From positions 96,533 to 160,532 of the forward strand of contig JAERTI010000056.1 of assembly GCA_016844925.1 (NCBI GenBank): a stretch of 64,000 nt of DNA, read 5' to 3'. Within the stretch, counting starts at the first letter, position 1, and each line of letters begins with the position of its first letter. The stretch comes from Candidatus Uhrbacteria bacterium. Its GTDB lineage: Bacteria > Patescibacteriota > Patescibacteriia > UBA9934 > GWF2-40-263. The translations under genes and the position numbers were made by a program. Below are positions 2,515 to 39,333 of the stretch, one piece after another. The notes below the pieces were generated by a model. The model did not search any database. It saw nothing but the letters and a program-made list of their open reading frames with translations, and had not been told where the DNA came from.

Positions 2515-5454
2515 GTGGCCGTTATGGAGACCGATTTACTCGCCAAATTGAACGACCAGCAACGTGAGGCCGTGACACATGTCGAAGGTCCATTGATGAT
2601 TGTTGCGGGTGCCGGAACGGGAAAAACGACCGTGGTGACACATCGCATTGCCTGGCTTATCGATCAAGGTCACGCTAAGCCTGAGGAGATCCTGGCACTG
2701 ACATTTACAGATAAAGCCGCGGGGGAGATGGAAGAGCGTGTCGATCGGCTCCTGCCATATGGGTACGTCGATCTACAAATCTCGACCTTTCATTCGTTTG
2801 CTGAAAGTTTGCTTCGAGAACGGGGTGTAGAGATGGGGCTCTCACGAGACTTCCGGTTAGCGAATGAACTCGATGCCTGGCTCCTAGCCCGTCAGAATTT
2901 TGATCGGTTTAATCTCAATCACTTCCGTCCGCTCGGGAACCCAACAAAGTACATTCGTTCACTGCTGACACACTTCTCACGCGCAAAGGATGTCGGGGTT
3001 GGTCCTGAAGAGTACATGGCACATGTTGAGGGCATGAAGGCGGACCTCGATGGAGCGCAGGCGGGAGATGAAGTGACGGCTGAGATTGCACGCCTTGAGG
3101 AGCTTGCCGGAGCCTATGTGACCTACCAACAGATTCTCTTAGAGAACGACTGTCTGGATTTCGGCGACCTCATGCTCTACACGCTCAAGCTTCTGAGGGA
3201 GCGCCCCGGCGTACTCGAGTCTTTGCGAGCGCAGTATCCGTTTGTGCTCGTCGATGAGTTTCAGGATACAAACGACGCGCAGTATGAGATCGTCAGAACC
3301 ATCGCATCGCCGCGCAACAACATTACGGTGGTGGGGGATGATGACCAATCCATTTATAAGTTTCGTGGAGCTTCTCTCGCGAATATTCTTCGTTACGAGG
3401 CAGACTATCCAGGTGCTAAGAAGGTGGTGCTCAACACAAACTATCGAAGCGTGCAGTCTATTCTTGATCATGCGCACGACTTTATTCAGCACAATAACCC
3501 GAACCGTCTTGAGGCCTCAGGGGGCTTGTCAAAGAAGCTCGTCGCACATGCAGGGGGTGACGGTCGAATCGAGCACCTGCACTGCACGACGGCCACAGAA
3601 GAAGTGAAACGGGTTGTCGACACGATTTTGAACCTCAGAAAAGACACGCAAGCCGATTGGAGCGACTTTGCCATTCTCGTGCGTTCGAACAGTGCAGGAA
3701 CGGATTTCGCTCAGGCTCTCGAAAGACACCGCATTCCATTTCAGTTCCTTGCTCTATCAGGGCTCTACACGAAGCCAGCGATTCTAGACATGATGGCGTA
3801 CCTACGCTCACTTGATGACGCGTTTGATTCCCCAAGTTTTTACAGGCTCCTGGTGAGCCCATTGTGCGGCATCAGTGAACGTGGAGTCATGGAGTTGAAC
3901 CGCATGGCCAGACGCAAGGGAAGATCCTTATTTGAGGCCTGTGAGGGGGCTCAGATGATGGATCAACTCCTTGTTGATGACCAGGTAAAGATTCGAAGAT
4001 TACTTCAGGACCGTGAGCGATTCGCTCGAGAGGCGCGAACACGTCCTGTGGGCGAGCTCTTCGTGCTCGTAGCGAAGGAGAGTGGGTACCTTGAGCACTT
4101 AAATACACTTCCAGAACGAGAGAAGCTCGAGGCCTTTGGATTTCTTCAGCAGTTCTATCAACGTCTCAAATCGTTTGAGCGTCGAGACGAGCACCCAATC
4201 CTTCACCGGTTCCTGGCAGAGTTTGCTCATGAGCGTGACGCTGGCGAGGAAGGCTCACTTTCGATCGACTTAGAGGACGGCCCTGACATGATCAAGATTA
4301 TGACCGTGCACGCAGCCAAGGGGCTCGAGTTTAAGTATGTGTTTGTCGTGAACCTTGTCGCCCAACGATTCCCCACACGCGCACGTAGCGACGCTATCCC
4401 GTTGCCAGAAGGGTTGGGATCAAGTGCACCCGATGGAGCAAATGCTCACATTGAAGAAGAGCGCCGGTTGTTTTACGTAGCGATGACACGGGCTAAGGAG
4501 GGATTGTTCTTGTGTTCTGCTGAGGATTACGGAGGAGCAAGAAAAAGAAAAGTTTCTCGCTTTTTATCGGAGCTCGGTTATGGGGAATCTGCCGCCGTTG
4601 GAAGAGAGACAATCGTACTCATTGATGAAGATACGGGTGAGGGGATGGTCGATGTGGCATCGGACAATCCACGGCTTCCTATCCCAAAGCAATTTTCTTT
4701 CACACAGCTCGCTGCATTCAAGACGTGCCCGTTGCAATACAAGTTCGCGCACGTGCTCAAAGTGCCCGTGATGGGGAAGTGGACGTTTAGTTATGGAAAG
4801 ACCATGCACAACACACTCCAGAGATTCTTTGTGCTCTGGCTTGAGAGAACAGGAACACAACAGGCAAGTCTGTTTGATGCGGCACCTGCTCACGTTGAAG
4901 GAACGCCTGTATCGATGGAGGAGCTTATGGAGGCGTATGCAGCGTGTTGGCAGGATGATTGGTATGTCAATGACAGGCAGCGCGAGGAGTATCGGGAAGA
5001 GGGACGCAAATCGCTCCGTGCCTACTACAAGCTGATCGAACAAGAGCCACCAACACCGTTTTCCATCGAGCAGGGCTTCACACTCAAACTGGGGGATGTG
5101 GTACTTAAGGGGCGCATTGACCGCATGGATGCGTTTGAAGACGGCGTTGAAATCATCGATTACAAAACTGGTACGCCGAAAACGAAACTCGATAAGGGAA
5201 GTAAAGAGCAGCTTTTGCTATATCAACTTGCTGCAAGAGACGTACTTGGTCTGAATCCGAAGAAGCTGACGTTCCACTACCTGAAAGACAACTCTCAAGT
5301 TTCATTTCTTGGCTCGGACCAAGATCTACTGGATCTGCAGGAGTCCATGGTTGATCGCGTGCAGTCGATTCGCTCGTCAGTATTTAACGCAACGCCAGGG
5401 TTTCATTGTAAGTTTTGTGACTTCGCGGACATCTGTGAATATCGTCAGAGGTAA
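2515..5454 (+). CDS. UvrD/PcrA-family superfamily-1 helicase with a C-terminal PD-(D/E)XK (RecB/Cas4-like) nuclease domain
   Basis: Walker A (GAGTGKTTVV), UvrD motifs (VLVDEFQDTN, VVGDDDQSIYKFRGA, MTVHAAKGLEF); the C-terminus has a nuclease core (GRIDRMD...IIDYKTG) and a Cys cluster (CPLQYK...HCKFCDFADIC). Confidence 0.85.
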   Translation: MAVMETDLLAKLNDQQREAVTHVEGPLMIVAGAGTGKTTVVTHRIAWLIDQGHAKPEEILALTFTDKAAGEMEERVDRLLPYGYVDLQISTFHSFAESLLRERGVEMGLSRDFRLANELDAWLLARQNFDRFNLNHFRPLGNPTKYIRSLLTHFSRAKDVGVGPEEYMAHVEGMKADLDGAQAGDEVTAEIARLEELAGAYVTYQQILLENDCLDFGDLMLYTLKLLRERPGVLESLRAQYPFVLVDEFQDTNDAQYEIVRTIASPRNNITVVGDDDQSIYKFRGASLANILRYEADYPGAKKVVLNTNYRSVQSILDHAHDFIQHNNPNRLEASGGLSKKLVAHAGGDGRIEHLHCTTATEEVKRVVDTILNLRKDTQADWSDFAILVRSNSAGTDFAQALERHRIPFQFLALSGLYTKPAILDMMAYLRSLDDAFDSPSFYRLLVSPLCGISERGVMELNRMARRKGRSLFEACEGAQMMDQLLVDDQVKIRRLLQDRERFAREARTRPVGELFVLVAKESGYLEHLNTLPEREKLEAFGFLQQFYQRLKSFERRDEHPILHRFLAEFAHERDAGEEGSLSIDLEDGPDMIKIMTVHAAKGLEFKYVFVVNLVAQRFPTRARSDAIPLPEGLGSSAPDGANAHIEEERRLFYVAMTRAKEGLFLCSAEDYGGARKRKVSRFLSELGYGESAAVGRETIVLIDEDTGEGMVDVASDNPRLPIPKQFSFTQLAAFKTCPLQYKFAHVLKVPVMGKWTFSYGKTMHNTLQRFFVLWLERTGTQQASLFDAAPAHVEGTPVSMEELMEAYAACWQDDWYVNDRQREEYREEGRKSLRAYYKLIEQEPPTPFSIEQGFTLKLGDVVLKGRIDRMDAFEDGVEIIDYKTGTPKTKLDKGSKEQLLLYQLAARDVLGLNPKKLTFHYLKDNSQVSFLGSDQDLLDLQESMVDRVQSIRSSVFNATPGFHCKFCDFADICEYRQR

Positions 5455-16888: not shown

Positions 16889-18088
16889 TTAGTACGACAT
16901 CAAGTAATCAAGTGGTTGAGTCGGAATACCGTTTTTTCTCACCTCAAAGTGCAGGTGAGGCCCTGTTGAGAATCCTGTATTACCCACCGTTCCGATCTGT
17001 TGTCCCCTACTGACGAATTGGTCTGGTGAGACATTCATGCTGTTCAAGTGAGCATACAATGTGGCGAGACCGTTGGTATGAATAACCATGATGTAATTTC
17101 CATAGAGTCTCCCCTGCCGAGTCCAAGCAACGTAACCAGGAGCCGCTGAGACGACCGGCGTTCCTGTTGGTGCAGGAAGGTCCACCCCCGAGTGTTCAAA
17201 CAGATGCCTGAATGGATATGTGGGGTCGTGAAAGTACGCAGAAATTCCTCTGATAGTGGGATCAACTGGCCACGAAAGGACACTGGAATCCCCTACCTCG
17301 TCGCTGGCATTTAGACGACCCTCTATTTCTGCCTGAAGTGCGACAATCTGCTGATTGATGAATGTCTGCTCTTCTCGCACCTCTGTAAGCAATCTACGGA
17401 ATTCTGCCTCAGAACTTTTTGTCTGATCTACGAGAACTGTTTTCGCATTTTGTTCTTCCTCAAGAAGGGCTCTGCTTTGAATCAGAGACTCCTCATAGGC
17501 GACAAGCTGGTCCTTTTTTGCTTGTTCTGAAGCATGCTTTTCCTCTAATTTTATCCGCGTTTTTCGAGCTTGATCAACAGCACCCTTTAAGTCAGTACTC
17601 ACATTTTCCAAACGCTCTAACTCATCGAACAGTTGCGAGAAAGAATCTGTACCGAAAAGCACTTGCAATCCAAAACCGTCACCAAGCACCTGGATCTGTT
17701 GAAGAACTTCAGAAATCATCTCTCGTTGACTATCCAAAAGATCTTCCTGTTCGTGAATTTCGTCTTCAATGATCGAAATTTCCGCATTTGTCAGATCAAT
17801 AGAAACTTCAGCGGCATCAATATCCAGTGCGGTTTTTGCAATCCTGTTTTCAAGAAGATCAACTTCACCTTCAAGTGTCGCGGCTTCAGCTTGTTTTTCT
17901 TCGATCTTTGATTGATAGGCGCTGATTTGTCGATTGAGTTGATCGATCGAATCACGCTTGAATTCAATCTCGGAATTAAGAACCTGAACATCAGCATGTT
18001 CGCCTGAGTGTGCCATCAAAAAACCCCCGCTTGGCACCATCAGTGCCAGCAGCAGTAGAACAAGAAATCGTTTTGCTCCCTCCATCAT
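16889..18088 (-). CDS. M23-family peptidoglycan DD-metalloendopeptidase with N-terminal coiled coil (EnvC-like)
   Basis: Signal peptide, long coiled coil, C-terminal LytM domain with HxxxD and HxH motifs (HSGVDL...GPHLHFEV). Confidence 0.8.
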   Translation of the reverse strand: MMEGAKRFLVLLLLALMVPSGGFLMAHSGEHADVQVLNSEIEFKRDSIDQLNRQISAYQSKIEEKQAEAATLEGEVDLLENRIAKTALDIDAAEVSIDLTNAEISIIEDEIHEQEDLLDSQREMISEVLQQIQVLGDGFGLQVLFGTDSFSQLFDELERLENVSTDLKGAVDQARKTRIKLEEKHASEQAKKDQLVAYEESLIQSRALLEEEQNAKTVLVDQTKSSEAEFRRLLTEVREEQTFINQQIVALQAEIEGRLNASDEVGDSSVLSWPVDPTIRGISAYFHDPTYPFRHLFEHSGVDLPAPTGTPVVSAAPGYVAWTRQGRLYGNYIMVIHTNGLATLYAHLNSMNVSPDQFVSRGQQIGTVGNTGFSTGPHLHFEVRKNGIPTQPLDYLMSY

Positions 18089-19542
18089 GAGACAAGCGAT
18101 TCAATCGCGTGATTCACACGCGTAAGTGATTCTTTCTTACCAAGCGCCCAGAGAAGTTCAAATGGACTTGGTGAACGTGGCTCTCCTGAGAGCGCTACTC
18201 GCAGTGGCCACAACACGTTGCCATTTTTCAAATCGTTATCTTCAATATACTTCTTTACCGCCCCTTCAATCAACTCCAGAGAGGTAAATACTTCCTCGTT
18301 CAGACCCTCAAGAACCCCCTGCACACCCTTAAGCTGCGCAATAGCATCCTCTTTATCTGCCTTTTTCCAAACAAGAATCTCCGCATCGTACGCTGGACTC
18401 TGTGTGTACATATCGAGTCGATCTGAAATCTCAGAGAGAACCGCGAGTCGATCTTTTTCAACCTGCACAATGCGCTTAAGAAGATCGCCTTCAATATCAG
18501 GTGCGAATTCCGCAATACGTTTGTTGAGCTCCTCCTCGTCCAGGCACTTGATGTACTGACCGTTCATCCAGTTGAGCTTTTCGACATCAAAAACGGCACC
18601 ACTCTTGTTTACACGACTGAGATCAAACGCTTCCTGAAGTTCTTGCATCGTGTAAATCTCGCGATCACCTGATGGATTGAATCCAAGAAGGGCAACGAAA
18701 TTCAAGAGTGCCTCAGGGAGATAACCTTTCTTTAGGAAGTCTTCAACAGCTACATCCCCTTGTCGCTTAGAGAGTTTTGACTTGTCTGGATTAAGGATCA
18801 GTGGCAGGTGCCCAAAGCTCGGCAATGGGAATCCAAGTTTTTGATACAAAAGAACATGCTTAGGCACAGATGATACCCACTCCTCACCACGGATAATATG
18901 CGTGACCCCCATAAGGTGATCATCAACAACAACCGCTAAGTGGTACGTTGGGAACCCATCCGTTTTCATGAGGACCTGATCATCAACCTCAGAGCCGTCG
19001 ATGGTTACCGCACCTCGAATCTCATCTGTGAACGTAATTGGACCCTCAGGCACCTTGAGACGGACAACGTGATCATCACCTGCATCAATGCGAGCTTGTT
19101 TCTCCTCGTCGTTGAGTGCGAGGCAGGCGCGGTCATACTTTGTTGGCAGTTTAGCCAGGCGCTGCTGATCGCGAAGCTGCGTCAGTCGTTCCTTTGTGCA
19201 GAAACAGTGGTACGCATCGCCTTGGTCGATGAGTTGCTGTGCATAGGTCTTGTACAGATCAAGTCGCTCCGACTGCACGTACGGCCCATGATCACCGATC
19301 TCGACAATCTTTCCGTCTACAAGCGTCGGACCCTCATCGTACGCGAGCCCCATGGCATCCATGGTCCGGATGAGTGACTCAACAGCACCTTCTACGTAGC
19401 GAGTTCGGTCTGTGTCCTCGACGCGTAAAATAAAACGTCCGCCATGACGTTTGGCGAAGAGATAGTTGTACAGCGCTGTACGCAGCGAGCCGATGTGAAG
19501 ATAGCCAGTTGGTGAAGGTGGGAATCGAGTAACAACATTCAT
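18085..19542 (-). CDS. gltX: glutamate--tRNA ligase
   Basis: Class I HIGH motif (PSPTGYLHIGSLRTALYNY) and KMSKS-like motif (KLSKRQG). Confidence 0.9.
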   Translation of the reverse strand: MNVVTRFPPSPTGYLHIGSLRTALYNYLFAKRHGGRFILRVEDTDRTRYVEGAVESLIRTMDAMGLAYDEGPTLVDGKIVEIGDHGPYVQSERLDLYKTYAQQLIDQGDAYHCFCTKERLTQLRDQQRLAKLPTKYDRACLALNDEEKQARIDAGDDHVVRLKVPEGPITFTDEIRGAVTIDGSEVDDQVLMKTDGFPTYHLAVVVDDHLMGVTHIIRGEEWVSSVPKHVLLYQKLGFPLPSFGHLPLILNPDKSKLSKRQGDVAVEDFLKKGYLPEALLNFVALLGFNPSGDREIYTMQELQEAFDLSRVNKSGAVFDVEKLNWMNGQYIKCLDEEELNKRIAEFAPDIEGDLLKRIVQVEKDRLAVLSEISDRLDMYTQSPAYDAEILVWKKADKEDAIAQLKGVQGVLEGLNEEVFTSLELIEGAVKKYIEDNDLKNGNVLWPLRVALSGEPRSPSPFELLWALGKKESLTRVNHAIESLVS

Positions 19543-20330
19543 ACGGTCCGAAATTGTCTATAAACTTCTTTAAACACGCGGCCAGTAGCCGCAATAATAG
19601 TTCCGCGCTTAAGTGTAATCCATGCGACGCTCAATGGAAAGACGACGGATGCACGAGCGATTCTTCGCCAACGAGATGGTTCGATAATGAGGCGCCATAC
19701 CCACTCAAGCCCCATTGATCTCAATCCCTGAGGGGCACGCTTCTTCTGTCCTGAAATCATGTCAAAAGACCCTCCCACACCGATCCACACACGAACATCA
19801 GGCAACACCTCTCGGGCCGTGGTCATAAAAGCCTCCTGCTTCCCCTGCCCTAGTCCAACAGCTACGGCATCAGGGTTTATCTGCCGCAGTGTTTCGATCA
19901 GCGTTCTAGAAATCCTGACCGTCTCCCCGTCAAACGATATCTGCCCTGGATCGAGACCTTCTGCACCTAGGACTTCTGCTGCTTGTTCTGCAGCACCCGG
20001 ATCACCTCCAAGGAGCAGTAATGTTTGTTCATTCTCACGACACAACCCGGCGATCTCTTGCACCAAATCAACGCCTGGAATTCTGTGCTGCAGTCGCTCT
20101 TCTGTCAGTGCTGCAACGGCATAGCGAATCGACACAGTATCAGCAACAGCAAGGTCTGCCCCATTTAAGTTTCGTCTTAGAACTTCATCTCGACGAGAAA
20201 GCACCAACATCTCCGCGTTTGGTGTGACGATAATCTTCCCTCTCGCATGCTCCAACCAATCTGAAATACGCGAGCGCACTTCGCCCAAAGAGAGATCGTC
20301 AATTCGTACGCCAAGGATGGTGTGTGACAT
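19539..20330 (-). CDS. WecB/TagA/CpsF-family glycosyltransferase
   Basis: 263 aa; family-typical motif GLEWVWRL and overall GT26 pattern. Confidence 0.7.
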   Translation of the reverse strand: MSHTILGVRIDDLSLGEVRSRISDWLEHARGKIIVTPNAEMLVLSRRDEVLRRNLNGADLAVADTVSIRYAVAALTEERLQHRIPGVDLVQEIAGLCRENEQTLLLLGGDPGAAEQAAEVLGAEGLDPGQISFDGETVRISRTLIETLRQINPDAVAVGLGQGKQEAFMTTAREVLPDVRVWIGVGGSFDMISGQKKRAPQGLRSMGLEWVWRLIIEPSRWRRIARASVVFPLSVAWITLKRGTIIAATGRVFKEVYRQFRTV

Positions 20331-24142: not shown

Positions 24143-24246
24143 ACCGTCTCCTTGTCATGAGGTGACCACAGTTTATACCCGAAAATAGGCGATTTGTCAA
24201 CCGACCGATCCACGAATTGCCTTGTTTCCGGTATAATGTCGGCACT

Positions 24247-25656
24247 ATGAGAGCCATTTCATTGACCCTCCTACTAGGCATCATCCTCACCAGCTTTCCC
24301 CTTTCCACTGGGGCCGAGGATGATTTTCTTTTTAACCCCCACTACCTCGTTTCTGACGCGGAGATGACCGATGTGTTCTCCATGACAGTTGACGATGTAC
24401 AGCGCTTTCTCACACGTGGAGGTCTGGGAGACCTTGTGACCGAGAACGTCGACGGCATTGAGATGACAGCCGCAGAAATCATCTACAACGCTGCCATCGA
24501 ATTCGAGCTCAGCCCGAAATTTCTTCTCGTCCTTCTTCAACGCGAACAATCTCTTGTGGAAGACGACTTCCCCTCCCAAGATCAACTCGACTGGGCCATG
24601 GGGTATGCGGTCTGTGACGACTGCTCCAAGTCAGATCCACGCATTCAAAAGTTCAAAGGCTTTGGGAACCAGGTCTACTGGGCAGCAGAGCGCATCCGCA
24701 CAAGCTATCTAGAGGATCTTCGTTCACGCGGCTACACTCAGACGGGCATGGGTCCTGGTATCGAGGCAACGATTGATGGAACACTTGTCACACCGGTGAA
24801 CTACGCTACCGCATCTCTCTACACCTACACCCCTCACTTACACGGAAACGAAAACTTCGCACGCATCTGGGAAAAATGGTTCGTGCACGAATATCTAAGC
24901 GGCACTCTGCTACAAGACGTAAGCAATGGGGGTATTTGGTTGATCCAACACGGCGTACGTCGACCAATCACATCCAGGACGGCATTCTACTCACGATTTA
25001 ACCCTGACGCCGTCATTCAAGTTTCCTCCTCAGAGCTCGATCGTTACCCTCAGGGGACCTCTATCAGCTTTCCAAACTATTCTCTCCTCCGCGCGCCGAC
25101 TGGAACTGTCTTCCTTATCGTGGATGATGAACGTCGTGGATTCGCCTCTCAAGACGCCTTCCGCCAAATCGGCTTCTCTCCAGATGAAATCGTCGACGTG
25201 ACCTGGGAGGACCTCGAGGCCTACACAGACGGAACACCGATCACCATCGAATCCGTCTACCCTCAAGGCACTCTCCTTCAAGATAGAAGCAATGGAGGTA
25301 TCGTCTACGTTGAAGAAGGTATTCGACACCCAATCATGTCGCGAGAAATTCTCCAGAACCGCTACGCGTCTCTGCCGGTCATTCCCGTTGACCCAGAAAC
25401 ACTTGAGGATTACGAGATTGGAGACTACGCTCTCTTCCACGACGGAACACTCGTTGCCGCAGAAGGCTCACCTGACGTCTTCGTGATCGCAGACGGGCAG
25501 CGTCGTCACATCGCCGATGAGATTACCTTCCGTGAGTACGGCTGGAGTTTTGACCAAGTCGTGTGGACCAATGAGCGCTCCGTTCTCCTACACCCTCTTG
25601 GGGACCCACTTTCCACGGAGCTTGTTGAAGATATTATTGAAGTCGCTTCAAACTAA
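24247..25656 (+). CDS. secreted repeat-containing protein of unknown function
   Basis: Signal peptide MRAISLTLLLGIILTSFPLSTGA; three tandem repeats of about 100 aa (GTLLQDxSNGGI...G(V/I)R(R/H)PI(T/M)SR...); ORF opens at 24217; TATAAT at 24232-24237. Confidence 0.5.
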   Translation: MRAISLTLLLGIILTSFPLSTGAEDDFLFNPHYLVSDAEMTDVFSMTVDDVQRFLTRGGLGDLVTENVDGIEMTAAEIIYNAAIEFELSPKFLLVLLQREQSLVEDDFPSQDQLDWAMGYAVCDDCSKSDPRIQKFKGFGNQVYWAAERIRTSYLEDLRSRGYTQTGMGPGIEATIDGTLVTPVNYATASLYTYTPHLHGNENFARIWEKWFVHEYLSGTLLQDVSNGGIWLIQHGVRRPITSRTAFYSRFNPDAVIQVSSSELDRYPQGTSISFPNYSLLRAPTGTVFLIVDDERRGFASQDAFRQIGFSPDEIVDVTWEDLEAYTDGTPITIESVYPQGTLLQDRSNGGIVYVEEGIRHPIMSREILQNRYASLPVIPVDPETLEDYEIGDYALFHDGTLVAAEGSPDVFVIADGQRRHIADEITFREYGWSFDQVVWTNERSVLLHPLGDPLSTELVEDIIEVASN

Positions 25657-25657
25657 T

Positions 25658-26446
25658 ATGCTGACATTTGCGGCTATCACCCCCCATACCCCCCTACTGA
25701 TTCCAACGATTGGTAAGGACAACCTCAAAAAACTCGATGCAACAGCAAAGGGACTTCAAACACTTACTCAGTCGTTTGTCGAAGCCTCTTGTGACACCGT
25801 GATCATCATCTCATCACACGCCTCACAACACGCTGATGCGTTCTCAATCAACCTGCACGACGAGTACCGAACAGACTTCAAAGACTTTGGCGACATGGGT
25901 ACGACGAAGGAGTTCAAACCGGACCTGGACCTTATTACAAAGATTCAGCGTACCTCTCGCGACCAGCGCGTGCCGTTCACACTAAATTCAATAGCGTCAC
26001 TTGATCACGGCATCGGTGTTCCACTCCACTATCTGACAGAGAACGGGCCCTCACCGAAGATCGTTCCCCTCTCCTACAGCGGCCTCTCATCAAAAGACCA
26101 CCTGAAGTTTGGGAACTTGTTGAAAGACCTTATTGACCAATCACACAGCCGCATCGGCGTGATTGCATCCGGGGACCTTTCTCACTGCCTGACGAGCGAT
26201 GCACCTCTCGGTTTTCGAAAGGAAGGTGAGCTCTTCGATGAAACCATCCGCCAAGCGGTTGCAGGAAGTTCTACCTCGACACTGTTAGCCATGGACGACG
26301 AACTCCCAAAGCAAGCTGGCTCCTGTTTGTACCAACAACTCCTCGTGCTGTTTGGCATTCTCGAACGTAAGAAAACGCGGCCTGAGATCCTCTCGTACGA
26401 GGCCCCCTTTGGTGTTGGCTATCTTGTTGCTGAGTTCCACGTATGA
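25658..26446 (+). CDS. class III extradiol dioxygenase (LigB)/Memo-like family protein
   Basis: 263 aa; the N-terminus AAITPHTPLLIP and conserved His residues resemble the LigB/Memo fold (weak); the 25517 ORF is an overlapping 5' extension. Confidence 0.35.
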   Translation: MLTFAAITPHTPLLIPTIGKDNLKKLDATAKGLQTLTQSFVEASCDTVIIISSHASQHADAFSINLHDEYRTDFKDFGDMGTTKEFKPDLDLITKIQRTSRDQRVPFTLNSIASLDHGIGVPLHYLTENGPSPKIVPLSYSGLSSKDHLKFGNLLKDLIDQSHSRIGVIASGDLSHCLTSDAPLGFRKEGELFDETIRQAVAGSSTSTLLAMDDELPKQAGSCLYQQLLVLFGILERKKTRPEILSYEAPFGVGYLVAEFHV

Positions 26447-28272
26447 TCGCAGAGGTCTATCCACTCAAGCGACTGCCGCGAAAAATGTCACATTTTGACT
26501 ACACGGCTCCAGAAGACCTCACGCTCACACGCGGGAACCTTGTTGAAATTCCGTATCGCAACAAGATCATCTGGGGTGTCGTGAAGCGTGTAAAAGACAA
26601 GCCTCCACGAGGGATCGAACTCAAAACGATTCAGGGGGTGTATGACGGATTTACCCTAAGGGAGGCTGAACTCTCTTTTTTTGAATGGCTCGCTCAGGAT
26701 CTCGCCCAGTCCCCCGCCTCGGTACTGTATGCGGCTGTGCCGCGCCCACCCAAGCGCCCGAGAAAAACAACGGAGCCGCTCTCTTGGCTACCACTGACAC
26801 TCCCGTCGTCCGAGACGGATCACGTCCTTCGACTTGTAAGCCAGCTCGGTGATCGGGCTAAGGCCTTTGTGCAGGCTCCAGACCTCCGGCGTGCAACAGC
26901 GGTGATCGTTGGCTACCTGAACAAACACCCCGATCAAAAGACACTCATCCTCGCTCCGACAAAGCGAGATGTGGAGCTCGTGCGCTCAAGGCTTACGGGG
27001 ATGCAACCCATCGTTCTTACGGGTGATGAGACAAACAACGAACGCTTTGTTCGATGGAAACAATTCCGCTCACAACAACACGGCGTTCTCCTTGGTACAC
27101 GTACCGCAGCCTTATGTGTTGACCAAGATGTCACGTCCATCTTTGTTCTTCGGGCCAGTGACTGGAATTTCAAATCAACGGAGCGCAACCCACGCTTTGA
27201 CGCCCGCCAGGTTGTCTGGGATCAGCATGAACGTTTTTCTGCGAACCTATTTCTCTTAGACGTCGCTCCAACACCGAACATCGTTCACCGCTTTCCAGAA
27301 ACAGAGCTGCTCTCATGGGGGTCCTCCGCTGCTGTGCAAGTCATCGATACCCATAAAGAACGACCAGGGAAACCCACTAGTTCTCTTACACATTCATCTG
27401 TTCAGGCCATGGCAGAAGTTCTCACACAAGGAGGTCGAGTGCTGTGTGTACACAATCGCAAGGGCGTAGCGCGTTCTCTACGCTGCTTGGATTGCGCCAT
27501 GACCCCAACGTGCCAAACATGCTCGACGGTACTCGTGGCTCATACACACACCATGGAGTGTCCGCGTTGCCGAACCAGGGCGCCCATCCCCTTGCGCTGC
27601 TCTGCATGCAACGGATCACGACTTAAACCGTTTGGGTTGGGAAACCAGGAGGTCGCGCGCGAACTACAAGCGCTCTTCCCTGGAGTCAACGTAAGTGTCA
27701 TTGATAAAGAGCATGAGGGGGACCTGAACGCACAGATTCTTGTCGTCACCTCCTTTTGGTACGAGGCGCACTTCCACCCATTCAAAAAACTCAACCTCGG
27801 ACTCGTGGTGCATATCGACGCTGACACCCCGCTCTACAGCACGTCCCCCACGGCTGTGCAGGATCTCATGATCTCGGTTTGGACCTGGCGCTCAGTTGCC
27901 TATGCCTGCAGGGTCTCGTATCTCGTACAGACAGCCAGTAGCCAGCTCGTGCAGCGCATTCTTGACCGAGCATTCCCTGCCGCCCTCGACGAACTCAAGG
28001 CCAGAGAGGATTATCAACTCCCACCGATCTACCGATGGAGCCGAGTGAGTTATCGAGACGATGAACCACGCAAGGCCCGAATCGCCATTGAGCAACTCGT
28101 AGATACCGCGAAGCAAATCGATGGAGCACAAAGCAGTAGCATTACAGAAGTTCACGGTCGCGGCTTGAGCGTAGATTTGGGCGTTCCTAGTGAAAAACTG
28201 TCCGATTTGCTTGCGATCTTCACAGCGCTTCCGGACCGATATATCATTGACACAAGCATCTTTAACGGGTAG
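26443..28272 (+). CDS. priA: primosomal protein N' (PriA)-like protein lacking the Walker A/B helicase motifs
   Basis: PriA N-terminal 3'-DNA-binding domain (FDYTAP...VEIPYRNKIIWGVV), a PriA Cys-rich zinc region (CLDCAMTPTCQTCS...CPRC...CSAC), and IFVLRASDWNFKS..PRFDARQV aligning to PriA VIDEEHDSSYKQ..PRYHARDV; no GxGK(T/S) anywhere. Confidence 0.5.
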   Translation: MIAEVYPLKRLPRKMSHFDYTAPEDLTLTRGNLVEIPYRNKIIWGVVKRVKDKPPRGIELKTIQGVYDGFTLREAELSFFEWLAQDLAQSPASVLYAAVPRPPKRPRKTTEPLSWLPLTLPSSETDHVLRLVSQLGDRAKAFVQAPDLRRATAVIVGYLNKHPDQKTLILAPTKRDVELVRSRLTGMQPIVLTGDETNNERFVRWKQFRSQQHGVLLGTRTAALCVDQDVTSIFVLRASDWNFKSTERNPRFDARQVVWDQHERFSANLFLLDVAPTPNIVHRFPETELLSWGSSAAVQVIDTHKERPGKPTSSLTHSSVQAMAEVLTQGGRVLCVHNRKGVARSLRCLDCAMTPTCQTCSTVLVAHTHTMECPRCRTRAPIPLRCSACNGSRLKPFGLGNQEVARELQALFPGVNVSVIDKEHEGDLNAQILVVTSFWYEAHFHPFKKLNLGLVVHIDADTPLYSTSPTAVQDLMISVWTWRSVAYACRVSYLVQTASSQLVQRILDRAFPAALDELKAREDYQLPPIYRWSRVSYRDDEPRKARIAIEQLVDTAKQIDGAQSSSITEVHGRGLSVDLGVPSEKLSDLLAIFTALPDRYIIDTSIFNG

Positions 28273-28284
28273 TATCATCCAGCT

Positions 28285-28758
28285 ATGACAACTCGACCAG
28301 TCCTCACAGATCCAAACGAAAAACTCCGCCAAGTGTCGGAGAAGATTTCTGATAAAGCCCTTGGTTCTGAGGAGCTCAACACGTTGATTACCGACATGGT
28401 CGAGACCATGAAAATCGAAAACGGTATCGGCATTGCCGCTCCGCAGATCGGTGTTCACAAGCGACTTATCATCATCGATACAGGCGATGGACCACAGGCG
28501 CTCATCAACCCAGAGATCACAGCGCGCTCACTCCGCAAGATCGAAAGTGAGGAGGGTTGTCTGTCCGTTCCGGGTGTCTACGGATTCGTAAAGCGCCACC
28601 GCGAGATCAAGGCTAAGGCCCAAGATCGAAATGGTAACGAAGTAACGTTCAAGGCTCGTGGCCTGCTCTCCATTGTGTTGCAGCATGAGATCGACCACCT
28701 GGACGGCATCCTCTTTATCGACAAAGTTATTCGCTACACAAGCCCACCGCGCATGTAG
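28285..28758 (+). CDS. def: peptide deformylase
   Basis: Motifs GIGIAAPQIG, EGCLSVPG and HEIDHLDG. Confidence 0.85.
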   Translation: MTTRPVLTDPNEKLRQVSEKISDKALGSEELNTLITDMVETMKIENGIGIAAPQIGVHKRLIIIDTGDGPQALINPEITARSLRKIESEEGCLSVPGVYGFVKRHREIKAKAQDRNGNEVTFKARGLLSIVLQHEIDHLDGILFIDKVIRYTSPPRM

Positions 28759-28759
28759 T

Positions 28760-29707
28760 ATGAACGTAGTCTTTTTTGGAACACCACGCTTCGCCTGCCC
28801 GTTCTTAAAGGCCCTCATCGACGACCCCGTAATCGAGGTCGTCGCGGCGTTTTCTCAACCTGATAAGCCAGCAGGGCGAGGTGGAGATTTGCTTGCCGCG
28901 CCTGTGAAACTTCTCGCACAGGATCATCTCATCCCTACGCAAACTCCTAAGAGCCTCAGAAAGGATCCTGCTATCGTCTCTCTTCTAAAACGATACGATG
29001 CGGACATGTTCGTCGTCGTGGCCTACGGAAAGATCTTGCCAAAAGACATTCTCGACATCCCCAAGATGGGAGCGATCAACGTGCACCCATCCATTCTTCC
29101 TCGCCACCGAGGACCATCCCCTATGCAGGCAGCCATCGCACAGGGAGATCTTCAAACAGGCGTGACCATCATGCTACTGGACGAAGGTATGGACACAGGA
29201 CCCCTCTTGGCGTCCGAGACGATTCAAATTGACGACAACGAGACGTACAGTTCACTTGAGAAGAAAGTTCACCTGCAGGGACCAGGTCTCCTGGTCGAGA
29301 CCCTCCACCGATACCACGCAGGACAGGTTGACCCCATTCCTCAGAACGAGGAGAAGGCAACGCTCACGCACCTGCTTCACCGAGATGATGGACATGTTGT
29401 TTGGAGTGAGTCGTTAAGCGAAATTGAACGAAAGAGTCGCGCCTGGCAAAACTGGCCGGGACTCTGGAGCATGTGGGACCGTGTCAGCGGCGTGTGTATC
29501 CGCCTGAAACTTATCTCCGTTAGACCGTCCGATTTCCGCGCTGATGTCCCCCCTGGCACCGCCACCGTTAAGGATGGACGACTCTTTATTGATTGCGCAA
29601 ACGGAACACTGGAGATCCTAGAAATCCAACCGGAGGGCAAACCAAAAATGAACGCGGCGGCGTTCATTCAAGGCTATCCAGACATTCACCGATCCCTACT
29701 GACGTGA
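28760..29707 (+). CDS. fmt: methionyl-tRNA formyltransferase
   Basis: Formyltransferase motifs (INVHPSILPRHRG, SLH-x-D core) plus a C-terminal domain; start lies 2 nt after the def stop. Confidence 0.85.
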   Translation: MNVVFFGTPRFACPFLKALIDDPVIEVVAAFSQPDKPAGRGGDLLAAPVKLLAQDHLIPTQTPKSLRKDPAIVSLLKRYDADMFVVVAYGKILPKDILDIPKMGAINVHPSILPRHRGPSPMQAAIAQGDLQTGVTIMLLDEGMDTGPLLASETIQIDDNETYSSLEKKVHLQGPGLLVETLHRYHAGQVDPIPQNEEKATLTHLLHRDDGHVVWSESLSEIERKSRAWQNWPGLWSMWDRVSGVCIRLKLISVRPSDFRADVPPGTATVKDGRLFIDCANGTLEILEIQPEGKPKMNAAAFIQGYPDIHRSLLT

Positions 29708-37943: not shown

Positions 37944-38702
37944 TTATTCAGCTTCAGGTTCTGCTGGTTCCTCTGGCTTGACTTCAGATACAGGCTCAGC
38001 AAAATCCATAGGAGCCTGATTATTGGTCAAAATAGAGAAATAGTCAATAAGAATGTTTGATGATGTTTCAACCGCCTCCTTTGGAGTGATTGTTCCATCC
38101 GTTTCAATGTTCATGATGAGACGGTCATAGTTGGTAATCTCACCAACGCGCGTGTCTTCAACTCGGTATCCAACGTTACGGATTGGAGAAAACAATGCGT
38201 CAATAGCGATTGTTCCCAAGTCATGACTCTCGTCACCACGTTGTTCACTTGGAACATAGCCTCGACCACGTCGTACAGTTAGTTCCATTTCGAAATCCTT
38301 ACTGTCATCCGTAAGAGTTGCGATAACCAGGTCGGTATTGACGATCTCTACATCTGCGTTTGGCTCAATATCTGCTGCCGTTACAACCTTTACACCCTTT
38401 GTAGAGAGAGTTAGTTTCACTGGCTCATCTGAAAAGCACTTCAAACGAAGAGACTTTAGGTTCAGAATGATCTCAAGAGCATCCTCCTTAACCCCTTCAA
38501 CAGCTTGAAACTCGTGATTCACGCCTTTGATCTTCATGGCCGTAACAGCGGCACCTGGAAGTGAGGAAAGCAAAACCCTACGAAGGGCGTTTCCGAGAGT
38601 TGTCCCGTATCCATGAAAGCAAGGTTCGACAATCAGTACACCCTCATTTGGGCGATCGCCGTCCTCGTACTGGATGCGCGATGGAAGAAGAATGTTCTCC
38701 AT
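37944..38702 (-). CDS. rpoA: DNA-directed RNA polymerase alpha subunit, N-terminal domain only (no alpha-CTD)
   Basis: Alpha-NTD motifs (VEPCFHGYGTTLGNALRRVLLSSLPG); the protein ends in a short acidic tail (PEEPAEPEAE) right after the NTD, with no helix-hairpin-helix CTD; start taken at MENILLP. Confidence 0.85.
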   Translation of the reverse strand: MENILLPSRIQYEDGDRPNEGVLIVEPCFHGYGTTLGNALRRVLLSSLPGAAVTAMKIKGVNHEFQAVEGVKEDALEIILNLKSLRLKCFSDEPVKLTLSTKGVKVVTAADIEPNADVEIVNTDLVIATLTDDSKDFEMELTVRRGRGYVPSEQRGDESHDLGTIAIDALFSPIRNVGYRVEDTRVGEITNYDRLIMNIETDGTITPKEAVETSSNILIDYFSILTNNQAPMDFAEPVSEVKPEEPAEPEAE

Positions 38703-38718
38703 ACGTAATGATAGTTGA

Positions 38719-39333
38719 TTATCGTGAGTAAAACTCAACGATGAGTGTAGGATCAAAGCCCTGACTTAGATCCTCCCCCTCTGGTAGTGATGTAATTTTA
38801 CCGGTCAAAGCTTTTTCGTCTCGTGAAATCCATTTTGGAAGTGTTCCGAGATTAATCGCTTCAGGAATAAGCTTTACAAGACCTTTTTCCTTCTTTGATT
38901 CCTTAATAGAAATCTCATCTCCGATACTTACCGCGTAAGAAGGGATATCGACACGACTTCCGTTCACCAGGATGAAACCATGGTTAACCATCTGACGTGC
39001 CTGACGACGCGTTCGGGCAAACCCAAGTCGGTAAATAACGTTATCAAGTCGGAGCTCTAGAGCAAGAACCATGTTCTGCCCCGTATTTCCATCCTTGTGG
39101 GAAGCCTTCTCAAAGTAGTTACGGAACTGACGCTCCATAACTCCATAGATTGCACGTGCCTTCTGCTTTTCTTGCAACTGCTCACCGTAGGCGCTCATGC
39201 GCGGTCGGCGTCGCATCTGCTTTGGTCCGTGAATTCCAGGTGGATACGAACGGCGGCGGACATACTTCTCCTTACCAAGGGTGATCCCCAGGCGGCGAGA
39301 ACGCTTTACAATGTTTGATCGATCACGAGCCAT
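38719..39333 (-). CDS. rpsD: 30S ribosomal protein S4
   Basis: MARDRSNIVKRSRRLG...; S4 RNA-binding domain. Confidence 0.9.
   Translation of the reverse strand: MARDRSNIVKRSRRLGITLGKEKYVRRRSYPPGIHGPKQMRRRPRMSAYGEQLQEKQKARAIYGVMERQFRNYFEKASHKDGNTGQNMVLALELRLDNVIYRLGFARTRRQARQMVNHGFILVNGSRVDIPSYAVSIGDEISIKESKKEKGLVKLIPEAINLGTLPKWISRDEKALTGKITSLPEGEDLSQGFDPTLIVEFYSR

What the first reader, a model, noticed from the sequence alone, without database searches (positions are those of the whole stretch)
26443..28272. PriA homolog that has lost the helicase ATPase motifs
The N-terminal 3'-DNA-binding domain and the Cys-rich zinc-binding region of PriA are recognisable. The position of Walker A reads HPDQKTLILAPTKRD (no GxGKT) and the DEEH box is replaced by RASD (IFVLRASDWNFKS aligned to VIDEEHDSSYKQ). 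A PriA that retains DNA-binding and zinc modules but cannot hydrolyse ATP would act purely as a replication-restart loading scaffold, which would be an interesting adaptation, though a sequencing or pseudogenisation artefact is also possible.
Basis: partly seen in the sequence, partly recalled or inferred. Interest (0 to 1): 0.5.

Follow-up and report, generated by a model that had tools for sequence, protein, structure and literature searches.

The report
ATPase-dead PriA replication-restart protein
This gene is the normal, conserved copy of the replication-restart protein PriA in a group of ultra-small bacteria (Candidatus Uhrbacteria), but it has lost every motif needed to burn ATP. It probably works only as a fork-recognising scaffold, a state already known from Deinococcus and also seen in mycobacteria.

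Summary
The ORF at 26443..28272 (+, 609 aa) is an intact PriA homologue. It keeps the 3'-end-binding domain, both RecA-like lobes, all eight zinc-binding cysteines and the C-terminal domain. It has no Walker A, no DExH and no motif VI arginines, and it lacks the winged-helix domain.

The true equivalent is QAPDLRRAT (aa 144-152), where the P-loop is shortened to a 3-residue turn. DEEH->RASD is correctly placed.

This is neither an artefact nor a pseudogene:
- About 65 close orthologues and 32 species-level genomes carry the same substitutions in the same clpB...Memo-like-priA-def-fmt neighbourhood.
- dN/dS against a 96%-identical orthologue is 0.056.
- A canonical PriA from another Patescibacteria lineage sits in the equivalent locus, so this is the positional orthologue.
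- A profile search shows that motif-less PriAs form a large family (at least 150 clusters at 50% identity).

The most likely function is nucleotide-independent fork recognition and recruitment of the replicative helicase. This is inferred from E. coli PriA K230R/A and the Deinococcus PriA pseudohelicase. Mycobacterial PriAs checked here also lack the motifs. I rate it a new member of a known kind, of modest interest.

The parts
26443..28272 (+). priA-like gene, 609 aa plus stop. Its ATG overlaps the stop of the upstream gene (ATGA).
26491..26742 (+). 3'-DNA-binding domain (aa 17-100). The 3'-end pocket residues are retained: D19 and Y20 (E. coli D17/Y18) and K61.
   Evidence: Pfam PF17764, E 6e-12. 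D19 and Y20 in 63/65 orthologues, K61 in 60/65. Residue roles from PMC5778457.
26872..26898 (+). Walker A (motif I) equivalent, 'QAPDLRRAT' (aa 144-152). The P-loop is deleted and there is no GxGK[TS]. D147 and R150 are invariant in the family.
   Evidence: AF2 DSSP gives strand 140-144, a 3-residue turn, then helix 148-161.
26926..26970 (+). 'HPDQKTLILAPTKRD' (aa 162-176).
27139..27177 (+). Walker B (motif II) equivalent, 'IFVLRASDWNFKS'. DEEH is replaced by RASD (aa 237-240); the family consensus is RSG[D/H].
27169..27210 (+). Retained aromatic/basic loop region, 'FKSTERNPRFDARQ' (canonical SYKQ..PRYHARD). N249, P250, R251 and D253 are invariant.
   Evidence: 99th percentile of conservation. 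Loop role from PMC5778457 and PMC10175261.
27484..27615 (+). Cys-rich region (aa 348-391) with four CxxC pairs, enough for two zinc sites.
27874..27912 (+). Motif VI equivalent, 'SVWTWRSVAYACR'. The QxxGRxGR arginine finger is lost.
27943..28269 (+). C-terminal domain (aa ~501-609). It aligns to the PriA CTD and keeps LPP (526-528) and DRYIIDT (598-604).
25658..26446 (+). Context: upstream LigB/Memo-like gene, translationally coupled to priA.
28285..29707 (+). Context: def (28285-28758) and fmt (28760-29707) directly downstream, conserved in all related genomes.

Best explanation
This is the single, orthologous priA gene of a Candidatus Uhrbacteria (Patescibacteria/CPR) genome, and it encodes a PriA pseudohelicase. 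The fold of the two RecA-like lobes is kept, but the nucleotide site is gone. The P-loop is shortened to a 3-residue turn (PDLRR), DEEH is replaced by R(A/S)(S/G)(D/H), and the motif VI arginines are replaced by WxW..A. The protein therefore almost certainly cannot bind or hydrolyse ATP in the SF2 manner, and cannot translocate or unwind. Inferred mechanism: it still recognises abandoned forks and D-loops. The retained elements are the 3'BD pocket (D19, Y20, K61) for the leading-strand 3' end, the lobe-1 loop that wedges at the junction, and the CRR/lobe-2/CTD elements that enclose lagging-strand ssDNA in E. coli PriA. It would then serve as a passive platform that recruits the replicative helicase DnaB, directly or through unknown partners, on forks whose lagging-strand template is already single-stranded. 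The sequence, structural and evolutionary facts are shown here. DNA binding, DnaB recruitment and the absence of ATPase activity are inferred.
For: - Homology and fold: HHalign of the family against canonical PriAs gives probability 100%, E 5e-68, over the full length. The AF2 model has pLDDT 91.7. Its best PDB matches are all PriA (8fak, 6dcr, 4nl4; TM 0.70-0.73; E 1e-36 to 1e-37), while other SF2 helicases reach only E ~1e-9.
- Motif loss in register. The model shows a strand, a 3-residue turn and a helix where the P-loop should be.
- Not an artefact: about 65 orthologues at 32-96% identity and 32 species-representative genomes share the substitutions, the length and the synteny. dN/dS is 0.056, from 122 synonymous and 26 non-synonymous differences.
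- Orthology: a canonical Doudnabacteria priA lies in the same M23-gltX-wecG...priA...def-fmt neighbourhood (compared). No second priA is present in the window.
- Retained functional modules.
- Precedents: E. coli K230R/K230A PriA lacks ATPase but supports restart and DnaB loading (PMC5778457, PMC10175261). D. radiodurans PriA lacks ATPase and helicase activity but binds forks and DnaB (PMC4504706).
Against: - No biochemistry exists for any member of this family.
- PriA's known partners (PriB/DnaT in E. coli and relatives, DnaD/DnaB/DnaI in Bacillus and Staphylococcus; PMC5778457) were not looked for, so the handover step is unknown. I would not expect them in this lineage (my own knowledge).
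- The residues replacing Walker A and B are among the best conserved in the protein (93rd and 87th percentile). That fits a structural role, but it could also mean the cleft has a new, unknown activity.
- The winged-helix domain that contacts parental duplex in E. coli is missing.
- I could not scan a whole genome for a second, canonical priA.
- PriA evolves faster than its neighbours (26-69% identity against 49-78% for Def and 63-88% for ClpB).
Confidence: 0.75

Rival explanations
1. The gene is a strain-specific decaying pseudogene, or a sequencing or assembly artefact.
For: None found. Only the unusual motifs themselves point this way.
Against: The 609-aa ORF is intact. The same substitutions occur in about 65 orthologues and 32 species genomes with conserved length and synteny. 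dN/dS is 0.056. The predicted fold is high-confidence.
Confidence: 0.01
2. Canonical motifs exist but were mis-aligned, so the protein is an ordinary active PriA helicase.
Against: A regex scan finds no in-register GxGK[TS], DE[EACQ][HQD] or GRxGR in the 143 related cluster representatives newly returned. None is found in the query's close orthologues either. Three independent alignments agree. Pfam DEAD/ResIII models hit the canonical CPR PriA P0312 but not this protein.
Confidence: 0.02
3. The protein is still an NTPase or motor that uses non-canonical residues in the old cleft, for example the conserved R149/R150 pair and D147.
For: The replacement residues are strongly conserved (D147 and R150 in 65/65). 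The Walker A and B equivalents fall in the 93rd and 87th percentile of conservation.
Against: The phosphate-binding loop is physically deleted. There is no catalytic Lys or Thr, no Mg-binding acidic pair, no catalytic Glu and no arginine finger. To my knowledge no RecA-fold NTPase works without a P-loop.
Confidence: 0.05
4. The protein has been neofunctionalised. It is a PriA-derived DNA-binding protein that no longer acts in replication restart, for example a fork-protection or regulatory factor, or one functionally tied to the co-transcribed Memo-like gene.
For: It evolves faster than its neighbours. The WH domain is lost. Some family members have even lost the CRR. Translational coupling to the Memo/LigB-like gene is conserved in 32 genomes.
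Against: It occupies the ancestral priA-def-fmt position, where a canonical priA sits in another CPR lineage. The 3'-end pocket, junction loop, CRR and CTD, which are the elements used for fork recognition, are the best-kept parts. PriA was the only restart-type protein identified in this window; the rest of the genome was not examined.
Confidence: 0.15

Closest known systems
Canonical PriA (primosomal protein N') of E. coli and K. pneumoniae; PDB 4NL4, 6DGD, 8FAK
   Same: Same overall fold and domain order: 3'BD, RecA lobe 1, RecA lobe 2 with the inserted 8-Cys CRR, then CTD (TM 0.70-0.73; HHalign E 5e-68). The 3'-end pocket residues and the lobe-1 junction loop are kept.
   Different: No Walker A, Walker B or motif VI, and no winged-helix domain. 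It is 609 aa against 732 aa, with about 20-25% identity. It scores 121 bits against TIGR00595, whose cut-off is 230.
Deinococcus radiodurans / Deinococcus-Thermus PriA pseudohelicase (Lopper et al. 2015, PMC4504706)
   Same: A natural PriA orthologue whose motifs I and II no longer match the consensus. It was shown to lack ATPase and helicase activity while still binding ssDNA, forks and DnaB. This is the same functional category as proposed here.
   Different: In Deinococcus-Thermus the Walker A Lys of the GKT sequence is replaced by Arg (PMC4504706). Here the loop itself is deleted and motif VI is also gone. The phylum differs and the loss looks independent. The Uhrbacteria protein is untested.
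Mycobacterium (Actinobacteria) PriA, e.g. M. tuberculosis; NCBIfam PRK14873 'primosome assembly protein PriA'; UniRef name 'Probable replication restart protein P...' (truncated in the output)
   Same: About 655 aa, no WH domain, and only PriA_3primeBD detected by Pfam. Walker A reads QALPGELWADRF, Walker B reads VWADADDS, and motif VI is absent. The CRR cysteines are kept.
   Different: The replacement residues are unrelated. The query scores lower against the PRK14873 models (44-78 bits) than against several PRK05580 models (up to 131 bits). This is therefore a parallel loss rather than shared ancestry.
E. coli priA300 (K230R), K230A and the engineered WH-deletion PriA (PDB 6DCR)
   Same: Laboratory equivalents. 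The ATPase-dead variants still support PriA-PriB restart in vivo and DnaB loading in vitro (PMC5778457, PMC10175261). The WH-deletion structure is the second-best structural match.
   Different: These are point mutants or deletions in an otherwise canonical protein. E. coli needs the helicase activity for the PriA-PriC pathway (PMC5778457).
Canonical short PriAs of other Patescibacteria, e.g. Candidatus Doudnabacteria P0312
   Same: Same phylum-level group, same lack of a WH domain, similar length (about 650-670 aa), and the same genomic neighbourhood upstream of def-fmt.
   Different: They keep GVTGSGKTEIY, DEEH and GRTGR, and they hit the Pfam DEAD, ResIII, Zn_ribbon_PriA and PriA_C models.

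Membership tests
PriA (replication restart protein / primosomal protein N') | N-terminal 3'-DNA-binding domain with the 3'-end pocket (E. coli D17, Y18, K61) | tested here: met
   PF17764, E 6e-12. D19, Y20 and K61 are conserved in 60-63 of 65 orthologues.
PriA (replication restart protein / primosomal protein N') | Winged-helix domain between the 3'BD and the helicase core | tested here: not met
   There is a gap of about 100 columns in HHalign and MAFFT. The domain is also absent from canonical CPR PriAs and mycobacterial PriAs, so it is not universal in the family.
PriA (replication restart protein / primosomal protein N') | Two RecA-like SF2 helicase lobes (fold) | tested here: met
   AF2 model with pLDDT 91.7. 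Foldseek gives full-length matches to PriA structures at TM 0.70-0.73.
PriA (replication restart protein / primosomal protein N') | SF2 ATPase motifs I (GxGKT), II (DExH) and VI (QxxGRxGR) | tested here: not met
   They are replaced by PDLRR, RASD and WTWRSVA, in register in three alignment methods, and in all orthologues.
PriA (replication restart protein / primosomal protein N') | Cys-rich region with eight Cys (CxxC x4) inserted in lobe 2 | tested here: met
   C348, 351, 357, 360, 373, 376, 386 and 389 are at least 90% conserved. The Pfam Zn_ribbon_PriA model itself does not reach threshold.
PriA (replication restart protein / primosomal protein N') | C-terminal domain (PriA_C, S10-like) | tested here: met
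   It aligns end to end in HHalign and in Foldseek. Pfam PriA_C is not hit directly.
PriA (replication restart protein / primosomal protein N') | Passes the curated equivalog cut-off (TIGR00595 / PRK05580 / PRK14873) | tested here: not met
   Best scores are 121-131 bits against cut-offs of 230-1249.
PriA (replication restart protein / primosomal protein N') | Orthologous genomic position | tested here: met
   A canonical Doudnabacteria priA lies in the same M23-gltX-wecG...priA...def-fmt neighbourhood (compared).
PriA pseudohelicase (as defined for D. radiodurans PriA) | PriA orthologue whose Walker A and B depart from consensus | tested here: met
PriA pseudohelicase (as defined for D. radiodurans PriA) | No ATPase or helicase activity, with fork/ssDNA binding and DnaB interaction retained | not testable with these tools
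   This requires purified protein. It is inferred only from the motif loss and the retained modules.

The most novel reading that the evidence does not exclude
The former ATP cleft is not merely dead but repurposed. The invariant D147/R150 (PDLRR) and the conserved RSG[D/H] would form a new site. That site could be a permanent inter-lobe latch that holds PriA in the fork-bound conformation, or a binding site for a different ligand or partner. On this reading PriA in Uhrbacteria, and more widely in Patescibacteria, loads DnaB by a nucleotide-independent, possibly partner-free mechanism. Repeated loss of the motor across this radiation would then show that fork remodelling by PriA is dispensable in small-genome bacteria.
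Probability: 0.2. Interest if true: 0.55.

Novelty: new member of a known kind. Interest (0 to 1): 0.3.

Why it matters
[quoted passage not shown] This gene is one member of a large lineage of motif-less PriAs in Patescibacteria under purifying selection, at least 150 clusters at 50% identity. Mycobacterial PriAs checked here also lack the motifs. Together these suggest that helicase-independent PriA function is a recurrent natural state, more common than the literature I could search implies. That makes these proteins natural separation-of-function variants for studying what PriA does besides unwinding. It also cautions against annotating them as 'helicase'. It does not open a new kind of system.

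Tried and rejected
- Literature searches for PriA together with Patescibacteria, candidate phyla radiation, Parcubacteria or Saccharibacteria found no paper on the subject. Searches for actinobacterial PriA motif loss found none either.
- The listing of cluster members on ten distant family members gave almost no taxonomy.
- I could not scan a whole Uhrbacteria genome for a second priA.
- I considered a phylogeny to count independent losses but did not build one. Long-branch attraction among fast-evolving dead copies would make a quick distance tree unreliable. The only evidence offered for more than one loss is that motif-less P0210 is 37-40% identical to canonical CPR PriAs but about 25% identical to the query.
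- ARAGORN found no tRNA genes in the window, and the composition profile showed nothing unusual.
Full report
**What is there.** The window carries an intact ORF at 26443..28272 on the + strand, 609 aa long. Its ATG overlaps the stop codon of the upstream gene (gtATGAtc). Peptide deformylase begins 12 nt after its stop, followed by methionyl-tRNA formyltransferase. Pfam detects only the PriA 3'-DNA-binding domain (aa 17-100, E 6e-12) and a weak Helicase_C-like match over lobe 1. No DEAD, ResIII, Zn_ribbon_PriA or PriA_C model hits. NCBIfam PriA equivalogs hit at E 1e-35 to 1e-38, but at 121-131 bits, far below their cut-offs of 230-1249. phmmer against PDB sequences aligns aa 179-553 to K. pneumoniae and E. 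coli PriA at E ~1e-25.

**Checking the motifs.** I compared three independent alignments: phmmer, MAFFT with 92 homologues, and profile-profile HHalign of the family against 30 canonical PriAs (probability 100%, E 4.7e-68, 598 aligned columns). They agree on the following.
- Motif VI 'QVAGRAGR' corresponds to 'VWTWRSVA', so the arginine finger is gone.
- Motif I 'GVTGSGKTEVY' corresponds to 'APDL---RRAT' (aa 145-152), with a deletion of 3-5 residues in the P-loop.
The conclusion is unaffected.
- About 100 alignment columns corresponding to the winged-helix domain are absent.

Several elements are retained:
- The FDY and K61 residues of the 3'-end pocket.
- The 'KQ..RNPRxDAR' loop of lobe 1.
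- Motif IV ('NRKG').
- All eight CRR cysteines.
- The C-terminal domain.

**Structure.** An AlphaFold2 model built on a 49-sequence alignment is confident (pLDDT 91.7, pTM 0.89). Its nine best PDB matches are all PriA chains (8fak_H E 1.3e-37, TMq 0.73; 6dcr_A, the engineered E. coli WH-deletion PriA, TMq 0.70; 4nl4 TMq 0.72). The next matches are generic SF2 proteins at E ~1e-9. In the model, strand 140-144 is joined to helix 148-161 by only three residues. A canonical RecA fold has the eight-residue phosphate-binding loop at that point.

**Not an artefact or pseudogene.**
- The big-database search returned about 65 full-length relatives at 32-96% identity. All are roughly 550-620 aa, and those that carry names are labelled Candidatus Uhrbacteria, Parcubacteria or Patescibacteria.
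- Every one has the same three replacements.
- A scan of one genome per GTDB species found 32 loci.
- All 32 share the order hyp-Memo/LigB-like-priA*, and the downstream def, fmt and membrane-protein genes and upstream clpB follow wherever the retrieved contig extends that far.
- Against the DNA of a 96%-identical orthologue there are 122 synonymous and 26 non-synonymous differences, giving dN/dS of 0.056. This is comparable to the neighbouring genes at 0.016-0.031.
- Within the family the residues that replaced Walker A ('PDlRR') and Walker B ('RSgd') are among the most conserved stretches. D147 and R150 are 65/65. The two stretches fall in the 93rd and 87th percentile of windowed conservation. 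The junction loop is in the 99th percentile and the motif VI equivalent only in the 36th.

**Orthology.** A canonical PriA from Candidatus Doudnabacteria (P0312, 663 aa) has GVTGSGKTEIY, DEEH and GRTGR and hits Pfam DEAD, ResIII, Zn_ribbon_PriA and PriA_C. It lies downstream of M23 peptidase, gltX and wecG, and upstream of def-fmt. The window has the same M23 (16889-18088), gltX (18085-19542) and wecG (19539-20330) genes upstream and def-fmt downstream. The gene is therefore the positional orthologue of a normal priA, not an extra paralogue. No other PriA-like sequence is present in the 64-kb window. A genome-wide check was not possible.

**Breadth.** A profile of the family searched against 1.84 billion representatives gave 150 top hits at 314-877 bits. 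A regex scan of the 143 of these not already retrieved found no in-register Walker A, Walker B or motif VI. The remaining seven were already covered by the alignment. About a dozen of them (plus P0062 and P0065 from the first search) have also lost all the CxxC pairs.

A distant motif-less member (P0210) is 37-40% identical to canonical Patescibacteria PriAs but only about 25% identical to the query. Live and dead PriAs therefore coexist in the radiation, and the motor was probably lost more than once. This last point is an inference; I built no tree.

I also tested a recollection that actinobacterial PriAs lack the motifs. My remembered M. tuberculosis sequence retrieved real Mycobacterium PriAs at 87-99% identity. 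These hit only PriA_3primeBD in Pfam. They read QALPGELWADRF, VWADADDS and no GRxGR at the three positions, and they have no WH domain. Their source names include 'primosome assembly protein PriA' and a UniRef name truncated in the output as 'Probable replication restart protein P...'. From memory only, UniProt adds a caution that such proteins probably lack helicase activity.

**How it most likely works.**
- Shown here: a PriA fold with intact fork-recognition modules and no nucleotide site, under purifying selection, at the priA locus.
- From the literature: E. coli PriA K230R lacks ATPase, helicase and translocase activity, yet the cells behave nearly like wild type and primosomes assemble. 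Helicase activity is needed only for the PriA-PriC route (PMC5778457).
- From the literature: K230A PriA is used routinely to load DnaB in vitro. In the cryo-EM fork complex the 3'BD holds the leading-strand 3' end and a lobe-1 loop wedges at the junction. The CRR, lobe 2 and CTD form a pore around lagging-strand ssDNA, and the WH domain touches parental duplex 10-20 bp away (PMC10175261).
- From the literature: D. radiodurans PriA has no ATPase or helicase activity but binds ssDNA and forks with near-normal affinity and interacts with DnaB (PMC4504706).
- Inferred: the Uhrbacteria protein recognises forks and D-loops whose lagging-strand template is already single-stranded. It acts as a nucleotide-independent platform for DnaB reloading. 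The conserved replacement residues most likely stabilise the inter-lobe interface.
- Unknown: the handover partners.

**Comparison and novelty.** The protein is a PriA by fold, domain order, CRR, CTD and locus. It fails the ATPase-motif, WH and curated-score criteria. It belongs to the already described category of PriA pseudohelicases. It is a more extreme case than Deinococcus, where the Walker A Lys is replaced by Arg (PMC4504706). It parallels, but is not derived from, the mycobacterial form; its scores against the PRK14873 models are lower than against several PRK05580 models. I found no paper describing this for Patescibacteria. I rate it a new member of a known kind, with interest 0.3.

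Noticed in passing
P0062, P0065, P0111, P0113, P0124, P0129, P0131, P0137, P0149, P0164, P0169, P0176, P0186, P0206 (relatives, not in the window): A subset of the motif-less PriA family (about 483-564 aa) has no CxxC pairs at all, so the zinc-binding CRR has also been lost. In E. coli the CRR is the PriB-docking and pore-forming element, so these would be an even more reduced PriA.
   Followed up: partly
P0088 and cluster members P0236-P0239 (Candidatus Avelusimicrobium / Elusimicrobiota): A 656-aa PriA named 'replication restart helicase PriA' by NCBI has partly degenerate motifs in the alignment. GKT is kept within 'GPSYTGKTE', DEEH reads 'LDEGD', and the motif VI arginine pair is absent ('GLRGHLS'). 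It may be another lineage on the way to a pseudohelicase.
   Followed up: no
window 25658-26446 (+), with 24217-25656 upstream; L037 460-4998: A LigB/Memo-like gene is translationally coupled to priA (ATGA overlap) and preceded by a conserved 479-aa protein with no Pfam hit. This pairing holds in all 32 related genomes. In a more distant Patescibacteria contig the Memo-like gene sits with radical-SAM and AMMECR1 genes directly upstream of priA, which together look like the AmmeMemoRadiSam trio (my reading of the Pfam hits).
   Followed up: partly
window 37944-38756 (-): The RNA polymerase alpha subunit ORF is only 270 aa. It hits the N-terminal RNA_pol_L and RNA_pol_A_bac insert domains, but no C-terminal domain hit was returned at E<=1e-5. 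It ends in an acidic, Pro/Glu-rich tail directly before rplQ, so alpha-CTD appears to be missing.
   Followed up: no
window 58570-61458 (-): A 962-aa protein has a TrwB-type (type IV secretion coupling protein) DNA-binding domain and a possible treble-clef zinc finger. It is followed by a 589-aa ORF with no Pfam hit.
   Followed up: no
window 2515-5454 (+): A 979-aa UvrD-family helicase is fused to a PD-(D/E)XK nuclease (AddA-like), with strong matches to the helicase domain models. Recombination-type helicase machinery is thus still encoded near the dead PriA.
   Followed up: no
L008, L011, L012, L014, L017, L018, L020, L022, L024, L027, L029-L032: Many species-representative records titled 'uncultured Gammaproteobacteria bacterium' (TPA assemblies) carry the Uhrbacteria-type priA* locus with the same synteny. 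The organism label on these records is almost certainly a placeholder or an error.
   Followed up: no
L001-L032 compared with the window: Across the same genome pairs PriA* diverges much faster than its neighbours: 26-69% identity, against 49-78% for Def and 63-88% for ClpB. This fits relaxed but still purifying constraint after loss of the motor.
   Followed up: partly
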